Positions 30,234-46,943 of a stretch of 64,000 nt of DNA are shown here, piece by piece. Under the pieces are notes generated by a model, which saw only the letters and a program-made list of their open reading frames with translations, did no database searches and was not told the origin of the DNA. Origin of the DNA: a virus; IMG/VR virus record IMGVR_UViG_3300014039_000006, one strand, 5' to 3'. The translations under genes were made by a program, and so were the position numbers. The stretch's first letter is position 1. Each line of letters starts with the position of its first letter.

Positions 30234-31598
30234 ATGAATTGTGTCGCATATATGCGTGTTTCAACGGAGAAACAAGCAGAAGAAGGAAATGGATTGGATA
30301 GTCAAAAACGGGATATCGAAATATATTGTCGCAAAAATGAGTTGATTATATCCGATTGGTATATTGATGACGGATATACAGGAGCGAATACCGATAGACC
30401 GGCTTTGCAAAGGCTGATTACGGATTGTTCAAAACACAGGATAAAATGCATAGTTGCTTTTAAACTGGACAGGCTTTCACGTAGCATGGTTGATGGAATA
30501 TACTTGATAGAGAGAGTTTTCATGCCAAATCAAGTAGAATTTAAGTGCGTGCATGACAGTGTAAGCTATGATAGTCCTATGGAACAAGCATACACACAAA
30601 TGATGGCTGTATTTGCACAACTTGATAAAAACACGATGCTGTTGAGAATGCGCGGAGGAATGCTTGAAAGAGTAAAAAAAGGATATTGGATGGGCGGTGG
30701 AAATACACCTTATTGTTACCGATATGATACTGAATCCGGTACACTGATTCCGATACCTGAAAGAGCAGAACAGGCAAGGCAAGCGTTAGAAATGTTCATA
30801 AACGGATATTCTGATGAACAAATAATGAAAATGTTTGGATATAAAAGCGAATTTGTTGTCAGAAGAATACTTACCGGAGTTGTAAACATTGGGATGATAC
30901 CGTACAAAGGAGAGGTTTTTCAAGGACTTCACGAACCTATCTTTGATAAAAGCCGGTTTGAACTTGCACAGGAAATAAGAAAGTCCAGAAGAATAACAAG
31001 GACAAAATGCTTTGACCGAGAAACAAATTTGCTTACTGGATTATGTTATTGTGGCGTGTGCGGTTGCAAAATGAGATACCAGAAATGGACTCATGGAAAG
31101 CACAGGATTTATTGCTGTTCCAGAAACAAGGATTTAAACTATCTTCCGAACTGGTCTGAAAATTGCGATAATTCTCTTGTGTGGGCGATTGATATTGAGA
31201 AGCAAGTTGAAAAAGAGATACTGAAAATATCCGTTAATCTTTCAAAAAGCAAGCCAAAAGAGAAGAAAAGTAAACTTGAAATCATGGAATCACAGCTTGA
31301 TAAAGAGAAAGTAAAGTTAAAAAGGCTTTATTCTTTATACGCAGACGGAAACGACACCGTTCTTGACATGATTAAAGACCTAGAACTGAAAATTGATGGG
31401 ATGAAGATGAAAATAACAGAAGAAGCCAAAAGTCCGTTGAATACACAGAAGAAAGAGTTTGTTTATGAAAATATAAAAAACCTTGCCGATATGTGGGGTC
31501 ACATTGACAAGGCTAAGAAAAACTCTATATTAAAAAGCATAATATCTAAAATTGTAATTGTCAATGATGATATTGAAATACAATTAAAAAACTTTTAG
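30234..31598 (+). CDS. Large serine recombinase (integrase)
   Basis: N-terminal AYMRVSTEKQAEEGNGLDSQ catalytic domain, recombinase domain, zinc ribbon CYCGVCGCKMRY and a C-terminal coiled coil. 454 aa. Confidence 0.9.
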   Translation: MNCVAYMRVSTEKQAEEGNGLDSQKRDIEIYCRKNELIISDWYIDDGYTGANTDRPALQRLITDCSKHRIKCIVAFKLDRLSRSMVDGIYLIERVFMPNQVEFKCVHDSVSYDSPMEQAYTQMMAVFAQLDKNTMLLRMRGGMLERVKKGYWMGGGNTPYCYRYDTESGTLIPIPERAEQARQALEMFINGYSDEQIMKMFGYKSEFVVRRILTGVVNIGMIPYKGEVFQGLHEPIFDKSRFELAQEIRKSRRITRTKCFDRETNLLTGLCYCGVCGCKMRYQKWTHGKHRIYCCSRNKDLNYLPNWSENCDNSLVWAIDIEKQVEKEILKISVNLSKSKPKEKKSKLEIMESQLDKEKVKLKRLYSLYADGNDTVLDMIKDLELKIDGMKMKITEEAKSPLNTQKKEFVYENIKNLADMWGHIDKAKKNSILKSIISKIVIVNDDIEIQLKNF

Positions 31599-40112: not shown

Positions 40113-40124
40113 TCCTTTCCCCTT

Positions 40125-40192
40125 CTAGCCTGTCATCATCGGAGCCGGGCGGCTGTCCCACGGCTGACGCTCCGGAGAGCGTTTCGACTATT
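40125..40192 (-). ncRNA. Hammerhead type II-like element 1
   Basis: Minus strand: ATAGTC-GAAA-CGCTC-TCCG-GAGCG-TC|AGCCG/CGGCT-CCGATGA-T-GAC. Confidence 0.55.
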
Positions 40193-43702: not shown

Positions 43703-44278
43703 ATGAAAATTGGGTATGTGAGAGTTTCAACAGTGGATCAGAATGAAGATCGACAGATTGAGGGACTTGAAAAGTATGGAATTGAAAAATGGTACATGGA
43801 GAAGGTTTCCGGGAAAAACATGAACCGGGAGCAGCTACAGGAAATGCTTTCTTGCATAAAAGAAGGAGATACCGTTTATGTACATGATTTTAGCCGATTG
43901 GCAAGAAGTACCAAGGATTTATTGGAAATCGTAGAAGTCCTTAATAAAAAGGGCGTTCACCTTGTAAGTAACAAGGAAAACATTGATACGTCTACTCCAC
44001 AAGGAAAATTGATGGTAACAATGCTTGCTGCAATTTACGAGTTTGAGAGAACAAATATGCTTGAACGTCAGGCAGAGGGAATTGAAATTGCAAAGAGGAA
44101 AAAGGTTTACAAGGGAAGAAAGCCGAAAGATATTTCCAGAGAGCAGATAATTGACGGCCTTAAGAGATACAAAGACGGACTTGTTACGAAAAAGGATCTC
44201 GCAAAGGAAATCGGGGTTTCGATTCCGACGCTTAACAAGAACTTTGACGAATTTGATCTTGGGAACAGTAAAGAATGA
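43703..44278 (+). CDS. Small serine recombinase (resolvase/invertase family)
   Basis: MKIGYVRVSTVDQNEDRQ catalytic N-terminus and a C-terminal HTH. 191 aa. Confidence 0.9.
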   Translation: MKIGYVRVSTVDQNEDRQIEGLEKYGIEKWYMEKVSGKNMNREQLQEMLSCIKEGDTVYVHDFSRLARSTKDLLEIVEVLNKKGVHLVSNKENIDTSTPQGKLMVTMLAAIYEFERTNMLERQAEGIEIAKRKKVYKGRKPKDISREQIIDGLKRYKDGLVTKKDLAKEIGVSIPTLNKNFDEFDLGNSKE

Positions 44279-44421
44279 AAATTTTTGGAAAAGAAATAAA
44301 CGACGAATGTAAAAATTGCGGAAAGATTCTTGAATGCGAATTATTCCGTCAAGGTCACGGGATTGGCGTTGAGCGTACCAATGTATCAGAAATGGTACGA
44401 TGCCAATTAGACCACTATCAA

Positions 44422-44494
44422 AGGGATATCGCCAAGCGGTAACGGCACAGGATTTTGATTCCTGTATTCGTGGGTTCGAATCCCACTATCCCCG
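44422..44494 (+). tRNA. tRNA-Gln (anticodon UUG)
   Basis: Cloverleaf: acceptor AGGGATA/TATCCCC (A1.C72 mismatch), D arm GCC..GGC, anticodon arm CAGGA-TTTTGAT-TCCTG, T arm GTGGG-TTCGAAT-CCCAC. No encoded CCA. Confidence 0.8.
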
Positions 44495-44693
44495 TTTGGG
44501 TTACTTTTTCATAGCCCATGACATTTTCTCCTTTATACGTAAACCCACTAGCGGAAAGCTGTTAAGGACCGTCACAAGGTCCGGTGGGATTCTATGGATG
44601 GTGCATTCCATAACCGTAAAGACGGACACCAAAGAAATCCTTTCTAAGTGTTAAATGTACAGTGCCGGTTCTGATGCACGGAGCCGGTGCGCA

Positions 44694-44771
44694 TGGATAG
44701 TATGCAAACGGGTAAGCAAAAGGTCGAAAGACCGGATCAGCATTGCAAGGTTCAAGTCCTTGCCTATCCAC
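44694..44771 (+). ncRNA. tRNA-shaped RNA 1 lacking an anticodon loop
   Basis: Acceptor TGGATAG/CTATCCA, U8, D loop with GG, T arm GCAAGG-TTCAAGT-CCTTGC. The anticodon arm is replaced by GGTC-GAAA-GACC plus an 11-nt linker. Confidence 0.6.
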
Positions 44772-44941
44772 TCTCCGTAAGGCCATACGGAGCCTAGGAG
44801 CCGGTCATAGATATGTTGCAAGCAGAAATGACGGTGAAAAACTTATATTCGTGGTGAGAAGCTAAAACGTGAGACAACATAGCCGTTTGGTAGCGAATAG
44901 CATTCTTGAAGTTTCAAATGGGTTTATAGGGGATGCCATAA

Positions 44942-45057
44942 CGGATAGTAGCTCAATAGGAAGAGCAGTATTTGAAAAATGTGTTAACAAAACACTAACA
45001 GCAATTACTTTTTTCAGGGGCGCATACGTGTTGGCGGTTCGAGTCCGTCCTATCCGA
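44942..45057 (+). ncRNA. tRNA-shaped RNA 2 with an expanded, branched anticodon domain
   Basis: Acceptor CGGATAG/CTATCCG, U8, D arm GCTC-AATAGGAA-GAGC, T arm GGCGG-TTCGAGT-CCGTC. A 65-nt insert (TGAAAAA...TTTTTCA stem, GTGTT/AACAC hairpin) replaces the 17-nt anticodon arm. Confidence 0.6.
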
Positions 45058-45203
45058 TTTACAACGCACACAGCAATTACAATGGACAAAACAGATAATT
45101 TTGAAACCAATAAATGCGTTGTTTTTATACAACCCTAACAGCAAACAATAATTATTTTTCTTTGGGCAAAAATGAAAAACAAGGGTTGGGAAAGGTGAAA
45201 AAA

Positions 45204-46664
45204 ATGGAATTTTCAGAAGCAATGAGAAATGACGGGAAGTTTACAAGAACGGAAAATGGTGCTGTTGCGTTAAACACAACAGGAAATTCGTGCCTTGATC
45301 TTTTTGGAACGATAGGTTCATTAAGATGCGCTGATAAAGTAAGGATTGAAACCATGTTTGCGGAAGCATACAAAGAAAATCCATTACTTGCTACAAAATG
45401 CGTATTTTACGCAAGAGACATTAGATGCGGTCTTGGCGAGAGAAAAACATTTAGAACACTTATTAAGTATATGGCAGAAAATCACCCAGAATCTATTCGC
45501 AATAATATTGATTTGATTGGCTTTTACGGAAGATATGATGATCTTTATTCTCTTGTCGGAACGCAACTTGAAGATGAAATGTTTTCTTCGATGAAAGATC
45601 AGTTTGAAAAAGATCTGGACTCCATGGAAAAAGGTTGCGCAGTTTCGCTTCTTGGAAAATGGATTAAAACAAGCGCAACCAGAAACAAAGACGGTAAGCA
45701 ACTTGGAATTTTGACGGCTGAAAAATTAGGATATGAGAACAAAGAATTTAATATTCTTGTTCGTAAATTACGGTCTTATATAGGGATTGTTGAAAGGGAT
45801 ATGTCTGCCGGAAACTGGGATAAAATTAAATATCCGGAAGTACCTAGCCGTGCAATGATGCTTTATAGAAAAGCGTTTGAAAGACACGATGCAGAAAGAT
45901 TTTCGGATTTTACAAGAAAAGCGTTATCTGGCGAAGAAAAAATCAATTCTTCTACGCTTTACCCATATGATATTGTCGAAAAAATATTATATAGTGGAAA
46001 AAATAGTGAAGTATTAGAAGCACAATGGAAGCAACTTCCTGACTACGTGGAAAAAGGAACAAATGCTTTGGTTATGGCAGATGTATCGGGATCCATGTAT
46101 GGAAGACCAATGGCAACATCAATTGGCCTTGCAATTTACTTTGCAGAGAGAAATGTCGGTGCATATCATAATCTGTTTATGACATTTTCCAGTATGCCAA
46201 AAACAGTTGCCTTAAAGGGAGAAACGCTTGAACAGAAGATATGCAATGTGAGCAGAGCGAATTGGAGCATGAATACAGATCTTCAAGCGGCTTTCTATAA
46301 AGTCCTTGAAATTGCGAAAAAAAACAATGTTTCACGGGAAGAAATGCCAAAATCTATTATTGTTATTTCTGATATGGAAATTGATGCTTGCGGAGACGAA
46401 GACTGGTCTTTCTATGACAATACGGCAAAGAAATTTAATGAGTCCGGTTATGATATTCCAAACATTATTTTTTGGAATGTAAACAGCAGAAGCAATGTAT
46501 TTCACGCAGATGCGGACAGAAAAGGAGTTCAAATTTGCAGCGGACAGTCAACCACAGTCTTTAAGCAATTGATTGGTTGCATTGGCTTTACTCCGGTTGA
46601 AATGATGAAAAAAGTTTTATGCTCTGAAAGATACGAGAATATTTCGATAGTGGGGAAAGCCTAG
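45204..46664 (+). CDS. Ro60-like architecture protein (helical N-domain + vWA with MIDAS; resembles DUF2828 family)
   Basis: N-terminus FTRTENGAVALNTTGNSCLDLFGTIGSLR (recalled as the DUF2828 signature). ~300-aa helical region, then the DxSGS MIDAS motif in VMADVSGSMYG. Confidence 0.6.
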   Translation: MEFSEAMRNDGKFTRTENGAVALNTTGNSCLDLFGTIGSLRCADKVRIETMFAEAYKENPLLATKCVFYARDIRCGLGERKTFRTLIKYMAENHPESIRNNIDLIGFYGRYDDLYSLVGTQLEDEMFSSMKDQFEKDLDSMEKGCAVSLLGKWIKTSATRNKDGKQLGILTAEKLGYENKEFNILVRKLRSYIGIVERDMSAGNWDKIKYPEVPSRAMMLYRKAFERHDAERFSDFTRKALSGEEKINSSTLYPYDIVEKILYSGKNSEVLEAQWKQLPDYVEKGTNALVMADVSGSMYGRPMATSIGLAIYFAERNVGAYHNLFMTFSSMPKTVALKGETLEQKICNVSRANWSMNTDLQAAFYKVLEIAKKNNVSREEMPKSIIVISDMEIDACGDEDWSFYDNTAKKFNESGYDIPNIIFWNVNSRSNVFHADADRKGVQICSGQSTTVFKQLIGCIGFTPVEMMKKVLCSERYENISIVGKA

Positions 46665-46665
46665 A

Positions 46666-46767
46666 ATGATCTTGAATTGCATAAATTGTGGCGCACCGAT
46701 TGATAATACGAAAACGAAATGTCCGTATTGCGACACTCCGTATAAGTTAAATGGATTTACTGGTTAG
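46666..46767 (+). CDS. Zinc-ribbon mini-protein
   Basis: 33-aa ORF not in the track: MILNCINCGAPIDNTKTKCPYCDTPYKLNGFTG. Confidence 0.35.
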   Translation: MILNCINCGAPIDNTKTKCPYCDTPYKLNGFTG

Positions 46768-46943
46768 ATTTCAGAGGAAAGTGGACGTGGCGTATTAAAT
46801 ATAGGCGGTCATTTCTACGATGTTTATTTATCCAGTGTAGAAGTGAAAAATGATTGCTACATGGGATATAGGGATAACACAGGAAGACTGATAAGAAAAT
46901 CCGGGTACATTCACAGAATGTTTACATTGGAGACTTACTAAAC

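What the first reader, a model, noticed from the sequence alone, without database searches (positions are those of the whole stretch)
44422..46664. tRNA-Gln plus two tRNA-shaped RNAs without anticodon loops, directly upstream of a Ro60-like (helical + vWA) protein
44694-44771 and 44942-45057 keep the elements that build the tRNA elbow. These are 7-bp acceptor stems (TGGATAG/CTATCCA and CGGATAG/CTATCCG), U8, a D loop with GG, and canonical T arms (UUCAAGU and UUCGAGU). In RNA 1 the anticodon arm is replaced by a GGUC-GAAA-GACC tetraloop hairpin. In RNA 2 it is replaced by a 65-nt branched insert. Neither can decode. The next gene (45204..46664) has a ~300-aa helical N-domain and a vWA domain with a DxSGS MIDAS motif (ADVSGSM), which is the Ro60/TROVE architecture. 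Its N-terminus looks like the DUF2828 family as I recall it. Bacterial and some phage Ro60 orthologues are encoded next to Y RNAs (YrlA) that carry a tRNA-mimicking module. Here the RNAs have normal tRNA topology (open acceptor end), unlike YrlA as I understand it, and the protein is not a canonical Rsr. The pairing may therefore be a distinct RNP.
Basis: partly seen in the sequence, partly recalled or inferred. Interest (0 to 1): 0.8.

Follow-up and report, generated by a model that had tools for sequence, protein, structure and literature searches.

The report
Phage Ro-like protein with tRNA-mimic RNAs
A gut phage encodes a ring-shaped Ro60-like protein next to four small RNAs (two tRNA-shaped, two hairpin-shaped) that share a module, a 7-bp stem followed by ACAGCAA; this module sits beside the same protein family in phages of many hosts and matches no Rfam family, so it is probably the unrecognised "Y RNA" partner of this protein.

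Summary
tRNA-Gln (44422-44494), RNA1 (44694-44771), RNA2 (44942-45057) and a DUF2828+DUF7788/vWA gene (45204-46664) are all present. The predicted protein fold matches Ro60/Rsr best, over its full length.

It is a short helix (P1) followed by 1-2 nt and ACAGCAA (more generally AC-N-GCAA). RNA2 carries it as a hairpin at the tip of its anticodon arm. RNA1 carries a degenerate copy. Two further stand-alone units (45060-45122 and 45128-45191) lie between RNA2 and the start codon.

This module is tightly linked to DUF2828 genes, always on the same strand. A covariance model trained on other phages gives 103 hits in 80 independent loci, all on the gene strand. Searching for the RNA pattern alone recovers the gene in 70 of 80 loci.

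In other phages the module closes a permuted tRNA-like domain with the YrlA topology. RNA2 is therefore a circular permutation of a YrlA-like Y RNA. About a fifth of the stand-alone units display anticodon-stem-loop mimics.

Best reading: a Ro60/Y-RNA-type ribonucleoprotein built from a divergent protein family and an RNA family I could not find described. No binding or expression data exist. I classify it as a new variant of a known kind, with interest about 0.8.

The parts
44422..44494 (+). Canonical tRNA-Gln (anticodon UUG), the first gene of the RNA cluster
   Evidence: ARAGORN; Rfam tRNA 59 bits. A tRNA-Gln is also linked to the gene in relatives L002, L004-L007 and L221.
44495..44693 (+). 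Conserved, strongly structured spacer RNA of unknown role. It includes the hairpin GGACC-GUCACAA-GGUCC, which has a 7-nt loop.
   Evidence: MFE -64.4 kcal/mol, z = -3.26, 0 of 200 shuffles fold as well. Compensatory changes: GGACC/GGTCC to GGATC/GATCC in L004/L005; to GAACC/GGTTC, and TATGGA/TCCATA to TATGAG/CTCATA, in L221. No Rfam match.
44694..44771 (+). RNA1, a compact tRNA-shaped RNA with acceptor, D arm and T arm. In place of the anticodon arm it has a short hairpin (GGUC 44722-25 / GACC 44730-33), then GGA and UCAGCAU (44737-43), a degenerate copy of the module.
   Evidence: Sequence and fold, z = -3.0. Identical in L004/L005 except for the hairpin loop. The L221 homologue keeps acceptor, T arm and GAUCAGCAU but lacks the hairpin. 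The same architecture with a full P1 hairpin and ACAGCAA occurs at L001 1622-1718 and in related loci.
44942..45057 (+). RNA2, a tRNA-topology RNA whose elongated anticodon arm carries the module: P1 hairpin GUGUU (44981-85) / AACAC (44991-95), then UA, then ACAGCAA (44998-45004).
   Evidence: Rfam tRNA 41.6 bits with a 54-nt insert. Arm covariation in relatives. The P1 hairpin covaries: GUGUCAU/AUGACAC in L006, GAGUUGA/UCAACUC in L221. Among 159 distinct tRNA-topology elements of 110-129 nt in all loci, 129 carry the motif preceded by a hairpin.
45060..45122 (+). Stand-alone unit A: P1 ACAACGCA (45061-68) / UGCGUUGU (45115-22), ACAGCAA (45070-76), and an internal anticodon-like hairpin AAAA-CAGAUAA-UUUU (45088-45102).
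   Evidence: Model R1, trained without this window, scores it 34.7 bits, E = 5e-6. The L221 homologue scores 49.5 bits. The 7-nt loop reads CUGCUAA in L004 and CUGUUAA in L221.
45128..45191 (+). Stand-alone unit B: P1 CAACCCU (45130-36) / AGGGUUG (45182-88), ACAGCAA (45138-44). It ends just before the ribosome-binding site GAAAGGUG.
   Evidence: R1 scores it 21.9 bits, E = 0.007. Conserved in L004/L005 and L221.
45204..46664 (+). Gene for a 486-aa DUF2828 + DUF7788/vWA protein with MIDAS motif DVSGSM, predicted to have a Ro60-like ring fold.
   Evidence: Pfam; PHROG 850 'RNA-binding protein', 2e-133. AlphaFold model. Foldseek: 1yvr E = 1e-6, TM 0.61/0.58, with 9nf8, 9l5y, 9kop, 2i91 and 2nvo next.

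Best explanation
The locus encodes a Ro60/Y-RNA-type ribonucleoprotein made of non-canonical parts. The DUF2828 protein is a sequence-divergent Ro60-like ring: a helical-repeat domain plus a vWA/MIDAS domain.

The four RNAs upstream of it are its cognate small RNAs. They are probably transcribed with the tRNA-Gln and the gene, and released by tRNA-processing enzymes. Each carries the same proposed protein-binding module, a 7-bp helix (P1) followed by 1-2 nt and single-stranded ACAGCAA. This plays the part that the conserved stem and GNCGAA motif play in bacterial YrlA.

The rest of each RNA is a display module that imitates part of a tRNA. RNA1 and RNA2 imitate the acceptor/T/D elbow. Unit A imitates an anticodon stem-loop. 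Through these mimics the particle would engage proteins that recognise tRNA, such as processing, modification, repair or tRNA-targeting enzymes.

What is shown: the protein fold, the existence, conservation and covariation of the RNA module, and its two-way, strand-specific linkage to the gene family.

What is inferred: physical binding, expression and processing of the RNAs, and the downstream role.
For: Protein:
- The 11 best PDB matches of a confident model are all Ro60/Rsr, aligned over the full length.
- The family occurs in 709 GenBank phage records.

Linkage from gene to RNA:
- In 80 IMG/VR loci chosen by protein similarity alone, ACAGCAA occurs 262 times on the gene strand and 46 times on the other. 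With a P1 stem in register the counts are 118 and 2. Of the 118, 84 lie within 500 nt upstream of the gene.
- Model R1 gives 103 hits at E<=0.01 in 80 independent GTDB loci. All 103 are on the gene strand, in 59 loci.
- R1 also hits GenBank phages it was not trained on: Pseudoalteromonas J2-1, Staphylococcus Alsa_4 and Sinorhizobium phiN3.

Linkage from RNA to gene:
- The pattern GGACAC-NN-ACAGCAA-N25-55-GTGTCC was found in IMG/VR. In 70 of 80 loci a DUF2828 gene lies in the DNA held, always on the same strand.

Structure of the module:
- All 7 P1 pairs covary.
- ACAGCAA and the G that follows P1 are 97-100% conserved.

In the window:
- R1 finds only three sites in 64 kb on both strands: unit A, unit B and the module inside RNA2.

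Link to YrlA:
- Units with long loops contain a T arm, then a closed acceptor hairpin, then a D arm: 20 distinct examples in 17 loci.
- The LeBron example hits Rfam YrlA at 39.8 bits, E = 1.3e-5.

tRNA context:
- 64 of 80 loci have tRNAs within 3 kb, 351 on the gene strand and 4 on the other.
- In Felix O1 the units alternate with tRNAs in the array.
- RtcB or an RNA ligase lies nearby in Listeria LP-125 and Pectobacterium CBB.

Precedent:
- Canonical Ro60 proteins, including a phage one, bind Y RNAs encoded next to the gene (PMC4201824, PMC12135203).
Against: - No binding, expression or processing data were available; the case is comparative.
- Pfam TROVE does not match any of 11 family members at E<=10. 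A family profile does not find Ro60 in the PDB by sequence. Common descent with Ro60 therefore rests on fold alone (TM 0.5-0.6).
- Some DUF2828 loci show no unit within the flanks: Vibrio, Stenotrophomonas, 21 of 80 GTDB loci and 23 of 80 IMG/VR loci.
- Ten motif-bearing loci had no gene in the DNA held.
- RNA1's copy of the module is degenerate, and its hairpin is missing in a relative.
- Many loci are related gut phages, so the counts overstate independent events.
- R1 E-values are rough.
Confidence: 0.72

Rival explanations
1. The units are only cis-acting leader elements. The protein, or a host factor, binds the unit next to the ribosome-binding site to autoregulate translation of the DUF2828 gene. 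They are not trans-acting RNAs.
For: Most units lie within 500 nt upstream of the start codon. In many loci the last unit ends 16-17 nt before it. Window unit B ends at the ribosome-binding site. No + strand terminator separates the RNAs from the gene.
Against: Units also lie downstream of the gene and are closed by a terminator in mycobacteriophages and Staphylococcus phages. They sit between tRNAs of arrays, away from the gene, in Felix O1 and L038/L019. They come in 2-7 copies. The module is embedded in tRNA-shaped bodies that carry the signals for RNase P/Z processing. Autoregulation could still be a secondary role of the last unit.
Confidence: 0.1
2. The RNAs act independently of the DUF2828 protein. 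They could be processing or spacer elements of phage tRNA arrays, or free decoys for host tRNA-directed enzymes. They would be near the gene only because both belong to the phage's tRNA/RNA-metabolism module.
For: Strong co-localisation with tRNA genes. Units inside large tRNA arrays with no DUF2828 gene in the DNA held. Anticodon-loop mimics in 22 of 95 and 17 of 78 units, against fewer than 0.5 expected.
Against: The module tracks the gene itself. 70 of 80 motif-selected loci hold the gene, typically 16-128 nt away. This includes phages with one tRNA or none near the gene: this window, Tourach, LeBron and Staphylococcus BE22. The link holds across actinobacterial, firmicute, proteobacterial and campylobacterial phages, which share no host factor specific to them. 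The Ro60/Y-RNA precedent predicts exactly this gene-RNA adjacency.
Confidence: 0.12
3. RNA1 and RNA2 are decaying tRNA pseudogenes, or RNA2 is an intron-containing tRNA that is spliced into a decoding tRNA.
For: Both keep tRNA arms. RNA2 passes the Rfam tRNA threshold. Similar elements are annotated 'tRNA-Val' (122 nt) in Aeromonas phage Aeh1 and 'tRNA-Undet' in Synechococcus phage B23.
Against: The insert is itself conserved and covaries (P1 hairpin plus AC-N-GCAA) across distant phages, including Aeh1 and B23. The arms show compensatory changes. The insert is 54-62 nt with no ribozyme match in Rfam. From general knowledge, the known bacterial and phage tRNA introns are self-splicing group I introns of a few hundred nt. 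Removing the insert does not obviously leave a 5-bp stem with a 7-nt loop.
Confidence: 0.03

Closest known systems
Bacterial Ro60 (Rsr) with YrlA Y RNAs (Rfam RF02553; Chen et al. 2014, PMC4201824)
   Same: A ring-shaped helical-repeat plus vWA/MIDAS protein is encoded next to, and on the same strand as, one or more small RNAs. Those RNAs combine a conserved stem-plus-motif module with a tRNA-like domain. In other phages the DUF2828-linked RNAs have the exact YrlA topology: ends in the stem, then T arm, closed acceptor, D arm. One of them reaches 39.8 bits on the YrlA model.
   Different: The protein belongs to Pfam DUF2828/DUF7788, not TROVE, with no TROVE hit at E<=10. The conserved motif is ACAGCAA rather than GNCGAA(N)G. 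The window's RNAs are circular permutations (open acceptor end, module closed by a loop) or lack the tRNA-like domain entirely. Nothing in the window hits YrlA or Y_RNA at E<=10. Units come in arrays of up to seven and are often interleaved with tRNAs.
Thermus phage phiLo Ro60 with Yrl1/Yrl2 (PDB 9KOP, 9L5Y; PMC12135203)
   Same: A phage-encoded Ro-like ring with two Y-like RNA genes directly upstream. It is a structural match of the model (E = 4e-6). According to that paper, the particle recruits host PNPase and attenuates its ribonuclease activity.
   Different: phiLo Ro60 is a canonical TROVE protein and its RNAs carry the CGAA motif. The sequence profile of the DUF2828 family does not detect it (E = 2.1).
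Canonical tRNAs and other tRNA mimics (from general knowledge: mascRNA, viral 3' tRNA-like structures, tmRNA)
   Same: RNA1 and RNA2 keep the acceptor stem, U8, the D-loop GG and the T loop that build the tRNA elbow. They are therefore plausible substrates of RNase P, RNase Z and CCA-adding enzymes.
   Different: They have no anticodon loop, so they cannot decode. Instead they carry a conserved module linked to a Ro-like protein. RNA1 is not detected by the tRNA model.

Membership tests
Pfam DUF2828 (PF11443) + DUF7788 (PF25043) / PHROG 850 | Score above the curated cut-off of the family models | tested here: met
   DUF2828 137.9 bits (cut-off 29); DUF7788 140.7 bits (cut-off 27.1); phrog_850 E = 2e-133.
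Ro60 / TROVE | Match to the TROVE sequence family (Pfam) or to Ro60 sequences | tested here: not met
   No TROVE hit at E<=10 in any of 11 diverse members. The family profile against PDB sequences gives 9l5y/9kop only at E about 2.
Ro60 / TROVE | Helical-repeat ring followed by a vWA domain (fold level) | tested here: met
   Model pLDDT 86.2, pTM 0.87. The top 11 Foldseek PDB hits are all Ro60/Rsr/phage Ro60, over 509-572 aligned columns, TM 0.47-0.61.
Ro60 / TROVE | MIDAS motif DxSxS in the vWA domain | tested here: met
   DVSGSM at residues 293-298. D293, S295 and S297 are invariant in 11 diverse homologues and in 56 homologues.
Ro60 / TROVE | Binds Y RNA on the ring and single-stranded RNA ends in the central cavity | not testable with these tools
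   Needs biochemistry or a complex structure.
YrlA Y RNA (Rfam RF02553) | Covariance-model score at or above the gathering score (69 bits) | tested here: not met
   No YrlA or Y_RNA hit at E<=10 in window 44300-45300. Best related hit: LeBron L017 4535-4643, 39.8 bits, E = 1.3e-5.
YrlA Y RNA (Rfam RF02553) | 5' and 3' ends pair in the protein-binding stem, and the tRNA-like domain has a closed acceptor stem | tested here: not met
   Window RNA1 and RNA2 have open acceptor ends, and the module is closed by a loop. The feature is met by long units in 17 other loci.
YrlA Y RNA (Rfam RF02553) | GNCGAA(N)G motif near the 5' end (PMC4201824) | tested here: not met
   The conserved motif is ACAGCAA, 97-100% conserved in 78 independent hits.
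YrlA Y RNA (Rfam RF02553) | Encoded within a few kb of the Ro-like gene on the same strand | tested here: met
   Window RNAs lie 13-510 nt upstream of the gene on the same strand. 103 of 103 model hits are on the gene strand.
tRNA (Rfam RF00005) | Covariance-model score at or above 29 bits | tested here: inconclusive
   RNA2 scores 41.6 bits; RNA1 gives no hit at E<=10.
tRNA (Rfam RF00005) | Anticodon stem with a 7-nt anticodon loop | tested here: not met
   ARAGORN calls neither RNA. RNA2 has a 54-nt insert and RNA1 a 4-bp hairpin at that place.

The most novel reading that the evidence does not exclude
Phages from many host phyla carry a modular RNA system that I could not find described. 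A Ro-like ring (DUF2828) is loaded, through the P1-ACAGCAA handle, with interchangeable tRNA-part mimics: elbows, whole permuted tRNA bodies, or anticodon stem-loops.

The 'anticodon' of these mimics changes even between close relatives. In unit A the triplet reads GAU, GCU or GUU in three related phages. The particles would act as decoys, sensors or capture devices against host tRNA-targeting immunity, such as anticodon nucleases and tRNA-cleaving toxins. Alternatively they would channel cleaved tRNAs to repair or decay.

This would also explain the spacers in phage tRNA arrays and give the tRNA-like domain of Y RNAs a concrete function.
Probability: 0.25. Interest if true: 0.92.

Novelty: new variant of a known kind. 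Interest (0 to 1): 0.82.

Why it matters
The purpose of the tRNA-like domain of bacterial Y RNAs is, as far as I know, still unsettled. Here the same logic recurs with a different protein family and a different RNA handle. The tRNA mimic comes in several interchangeable forms, including circular permutations and bare anticodon-loop mimics. That argues that presenting tRNA shapes on a Ro-like ring is the selected function.

The family is common. It occurs in 709 GenBank phage records, including Felix O1-like, Listeria, Staphylococcus, Campylobacter and mycobacteriophage groups that can be handled in the laboratory. The hypothesis is therefore directly testable.

It also has practical value for annotation. 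It explains unannotated gaps next to these genes, spacers in phage tRNA arrays, and 110-125-nt 'tRNA-Undet' or 'tRNA-Val' calls. It supplies a covariance model for an RNA family that matches nothing in Rfam 15.

Tried and rejected
- **Rfam on the locus.** A scan at E<=10 gave only the two tRNA hits and noise. No Y_RNA, YrlA, riboswitch or ribozyme was found.
- **PDB by sequence.** Searches with the protein and with a family profile found nothing useful. Only fold comparison revealed Ro60.
- **RNAalifold on the RNA2 class.** It resolved the tRNA arms but not the insert, because MAFFT misaligns the insert. I read the P1 hairpin by eye and with a script.
- **tRNA pseudogene and tRNA intron readings.** Rejected on conservation and covariation of the insert.
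- **Pairing statistics on the first unit set.** The first unit set was selected for pairing, so its percentage paired is circular. I relied instead on strand asymmetry, and on a model-based search of loci the model was not trained on.
- **DUF2828 loci without units.** No units were detected near the genes of Vibrio TCU-VP04, Stenotrophomonas DLP_6 or Aeromonas Aeh1, which has only the long tRNA-like form 2.7 kb away.
- **Material not held.** The supplementary tables of Chen et al. 2014 and the Sim et al. 2020 review were not available. I therefore could not check whether any DUF2828 phage was in their lists.
- **Model coordinates.** They could not be read, so I did no surface or cavity analysis.
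- **Literature.** Searches for DUF2828, DUF7788, PF11443, Ro-like with phage, YrlA with phage, and tRNA-like decoys found no description of these RNAs.
- **No model for RNA1.** Too few distinct sequences were available to build one.
Full report
**1. What is in the window**

ARAGORN and Rfam confirm tRNA-Gln(UUG) at 44422-44494.

RNA2 (44942-45057) passes the Rfam tRNA threshold at 41.6 bits. It has complete acceptor, D and T arms, and 54 nt where the anticodon loop should be.

RNA1 (44694-44771) shows the described 7-bp acceptor stem, U8, D-loop GG, T loop UUCAAGU and a GGUC-GAAA-GACC hairpin. It folds accordingly with z = -3.0. No Rfam model sees it at E<=10.

The ORF starting at the ATG at 45204 (486 aa) matches Pfam DUF2828 and DUF7788, and weakly VWA_2. 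It also matches PHROG 850 'RNA-binding protein'. It carries an invariant DVSGSM MIDAS motif.

The window is a phage genome. A serine invertase lies upstream, and the large terminase, portal and major head genes lie downstream. The closest relatives binned with cellular genomes are Lachnospiraceae MAG contigs.

**2. The protein is Ro60-like by fold, not by sequence**

I built an AlphaFold2 model from 56 homologues with 40-94% identity. It has pLDDT 86.2 and pTM 0.87.

Its 11 best PDB matches are all Ro60 proteins aligned over their full length:
- Xenopus Ro60 (1yvr, E = 1e-6, TM 0.61/0.58)
- human Ro60
- Thermus phage phiLo Ro60 (9l5y, 9kop)
- Deinococcus Rsr (2nvo)

The next hits are isolated vWA domains.

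Sequence methods do not connect the families. There is no TROVE hit at E<=10 in 11 members. A family profile finds phiLo Ro60 only at E about 2.

The family is large. It gives 709 GenBank phage records and at least 7,900 database clusters, and it has homologues in giant viruses. Actinophage annotators already call it 'Ro-like RNA binding protein'.

**3. The unifying RNA element**

I aligned RNA2 with tRNA-model hits that carry 59-62-nt inserts upstream of the gene in relatives. This showed an invariant C-GCAA inside the insert.

Searching for ACRGCAA in ten unrelated GenBank phages showed 2-7 copies beside the DUF2828 gene in most of them. The hosts were Salmonella, Listeria, Mycobacterium, Bacillus, Staphylococcus, Enterococcus and Campylobacter. 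The copies lie in unannotated gaps or between tRNAs.

In each stand-alone copy, the 7-9 nt that end 1-2 nt before the motif pair with a strand 30-50 nt downstream, and that strand is followed by G. The consensus is:

5'-wRGRnnC-nn-ACAGCAA-[variable loop]-GnnYCYw-G-3'

**4. Statistics**

*Forward test, from gene to RNA.* I took 80 IMG/VR loci chosen by protein similarity alone. The results come:

| Measure | Gene strand | Opposite strand |
|---|---|---|
| ACAGCAA occurrences | 262 | 46 |
| With a P1 stem in register | 118 | 2 |

Of the 118, 84 lie within 500 nt upstream of the start.

*Reverse test, from RNA to gene.* The pattern GGACAC-NN-ACAGCAA-N25-55-GTGTCC hit at least 120 IMG/VR stretches. 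Of the 80 I examined, 70 contain a DUF2828 gene in the DNA held, always on the same strand. In 64 of them the unit is upstream of the gene, all within 246 nt, mostly at 16-128 nt. The other ten lie inside large tRNA arrays or at the edge of the stored DNA.

*Model-based test.* Covariance model R1 was built from 55 units, excluding the window and its near-identical relatives.
- In the whole 64-kb window, on both strands, it finds only unit A (45060-45122, 34.7 bits, E = 5e-6), unit B (45128-45191, 21.9 bits, E = 0.007) and the module inside RNA2 (15.8 bits).
- In 80 GTDB loci chosen by protein only, it gives 103 hits at E<=0.01, all on the gene strand, in 59 loci.
- In 78 of those hits all seven P1 pairs are always formed, and all seven covary (2 to 37 double changes). 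The covariation score is 0.64, against 0.30 for shuffles and 0.10-0.15 for slid registers.
- ACAGCAA and the trailing G are 97-100% conserved.
- It also hits GenBank phages it was not trained on: Pseudoalteromonas J2-1, Staphylococcus Alsa_4 and Sinorhizobium phiN3.

**5. Four architectures share the module**

- **(A) Short stand-alone units** of about 52-75 nt. Window units A and B belong here.
- **(B) Long stand-alone units** of about 105-155 nt. Their loop holds a T arm, then a closed acceptor-like hairpin, then a D arm, which is the YrlA topology. I found 20 distinct examples in 17 loci, including Felix O1, Tourach, LeBron, Bacillus Nate, phiN3 and J2-1. The LeBron example, with GCAGCAA, hits Rfam YrlA at 39.8 bits, E = 1.3e-5, below the gathering score of 69.
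- **(C) tRNA-topology RNAs of 110-129 nt.** The module sits at the end of a long anticodon arm with P1 closed by a loop. RNA2 is one. Of 159 distinct elements of that length, 129 have the motif preceded by a hairpin. The 'tRNA-Val' of Aeh1 (with ACCGCAA) and the 'tRNA-Undet' of Synechococcus phage B23 (with ACUGCAA) are members.
- **(D) Compact tRNA-topology RNAs of about 78-102 nt.** The P1 hairpin and motif replace the anticodon arm directly, as at L001 1622-1718. RNA1 fits this class with a 4-bp hairpin and the degenerate motif UCAGCAU.

C and D are circular permutations of B. In B the order is 3' strand of P1, RNA ends, 5' strand of P1, ACAGCAA. In C and D the same strands are joined by a loop, and the RNA ends lie in the acceptor stem. 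P1 hairpins of class C covary: GUGUU/AACAC, GUGUCAU/AUGACAC, AAGUCA/UGACUU and GAGUUGA/UCAACUC.

**6. Conservation of this particular locus**

Two IMG/VR relatives with about 90% protein identity share the whole 800-nt non-coding region at 96% identity, with compensatory changes.

A contig whose protein is 76% identical keeps the order tRNA-Gln, structured spacer, RNA1, RNA2, unit A, unit B, gene. In that contig:
- RNA2's P1 hairpin is entirely different in sequence but still pairs, and is followed by UA-ACAGCGA.
- Unit A scores 49.5 bits.
- RNA1 keeps the acceptor, the T arm and GAUCAGCAU but lacks the hairpin. RNA1 is therefore real and conserved, but its hairpin (and the GAAA loop) is dispensable.

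**7. Display modules**

In the stand-alone units, 22 of 95 (training-set survey) and 17 of 78 (independent hits) contain a hairpin with a stem of at least 4 bp and a 7-nt loop CU-NNN-AA, the signature of an anticodon loop. Shuffled loops give 0.45 and 0.29 on average, and never more than 3.

The triplets include UUU, GUU, GCU, GCA, GAA, GUA, UGA, UCC, UUC and GAU. In window unit A the hairpin AAAA-CAGAUAA-UUUU reads CUGCUAA and CUGUUAA in two relatives.

**8. Context**

tRNA genes accompany the gene in 64 of 80 loci, 351 on the gene strand and 4 on the other. In Felix O1 the units alternate with tRNAs. From general knowledge, processing at the flanking tRNA ends would then release them.

In mycobacteriophages the gene is followed by a short unit, a YrlA-like unit, another short unit and a terminator. 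RtcB lies 1.3 kb downstream in Listeria LP-125. An RNA ligase and a CCA-adding/phosphodiesterase enzyme flank the gene in Pectobacterium CBB.

In the window no + strand terminator separates the RNAs from the gene. This is weak evidence.

**9. Interpretation**

The best-supported explanation is a Ro60/Y-RNA-type particle. The Ro-like ring would bind the P1-ACAGCAA handle, and the variable part would present tRNA shapes.

This follows the precedents of Rsr with YrlA (PMC4201824) and of phiLo Ro60 with Yrl1/2, which recruits host PNPase (PMC12135203).

Binding, expression, processing and the biological role are inferred, not shown. A role of the gene-proximal unit in autoregulation is compatible with this and not excluded. 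The pseudogene and intron explanations are rejected.

**10. Novelty**

The kind of system, a Ro-like protein with tRNA-mimicking small RNAs next to the gene, is known. Four things appear to be undescribed:
- the RNA family itself (no Rfam family matches it; no paper found in the held library)
- its pairing with the DUF2828 branch
- the open-acceptor permuted forms
- the anticodon-loop mimics

Chen et al. 2014 searched only genomes annotated with TROVE proteins.

**Caveats**
- Many loci are related gut phages.
- Model E-values are approximate.
- The library does not cover subscription journals.

Noticed in passing
window 40124-40189 (- strand): A type II hammerhead ribozyme match above the Rfam gathering score (43.1 bits against 37, full model length), about 4 kb upstream of the RNA cluster.
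   Followed up: no
window 44495-44693: A strongly structured spacer between tRNA-Gln and RNA1 (z = -3.26), conserved with compensatory changes in L004/L005 and L221. It contains a branched domain (CCCAC...GGUGGG) with the hairpin GGACC-GUCACAA-GGUCC, whose 7-nt loop looks anticodon-like, and a 12-bp hairpin just before RNA1. It matches no Rfam family and may be a further RNA of the same system.
   Followed up: partly
window 44275-44442 and 46667-46768: Two small Cys-rich ORFs flank the cluster. The upstream one (55 aa, with CxxC) ends inside the tRNA-Gln gene and is conserved in L221. The downstream one (33 aa, CxxC...CxxC) starts 3 nt after the DUF2828 stop codon.
   Followed up: no
L015 7154-7275 (Aeromonas phage Aeh1) and L016 4869-4978 (Synechococcus phage B23): Features annotated 'tRNA-Val' (122 nt) and 'tRNA-Undet' (110 nt) are class-C members: tRNA bodies with a P1 hairpin plus ACCGCAA or ACUGCAA in the anticodon arm. 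The Aeh1 RNA has an encoded CCA end.
   Followed up: partly
L038, L019, L085 (IMG/VR contigs): Tandem P1-ACAGCAA units lie inside very large phage tRNA arrays (18-19 tRNAs; 7 tRNAs plus a tmRNA in L085). No DUF2828 gene is present in the DNA held, so the gene may lie further away on these 62-117-kb contigs, or these units may work without it.
   Followed up: partly
window 45092-45098; L004 and L221 homologues of unit A: The 7-nt loop of the anticodon-like hairpin in unit A differs between close relatives (CAGAUAA, CUGCUAA, CUGUUAA) while the stem is kept. Selection may be acting on the mimicked 'anticodon'.
   Followed up: partly
window 44991-44995 with 44981-44985 or 45028-45032: In RNA2 the strand AACAC before ACAGCAA can pair either with the upstream GUGUU (hairpin form) or with a downstream GUGUU in the variable region (the form the R1 model chose). 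The downstream alternative does not appear to be available in L006 (by eye).
   Followed up: no
window 30234-31598 and 43703-44278: Two serine recombinase/invertase genes (PHROG 95 and 125). The second lies immediately upstream of the RNA cluster.
   Followed up: no
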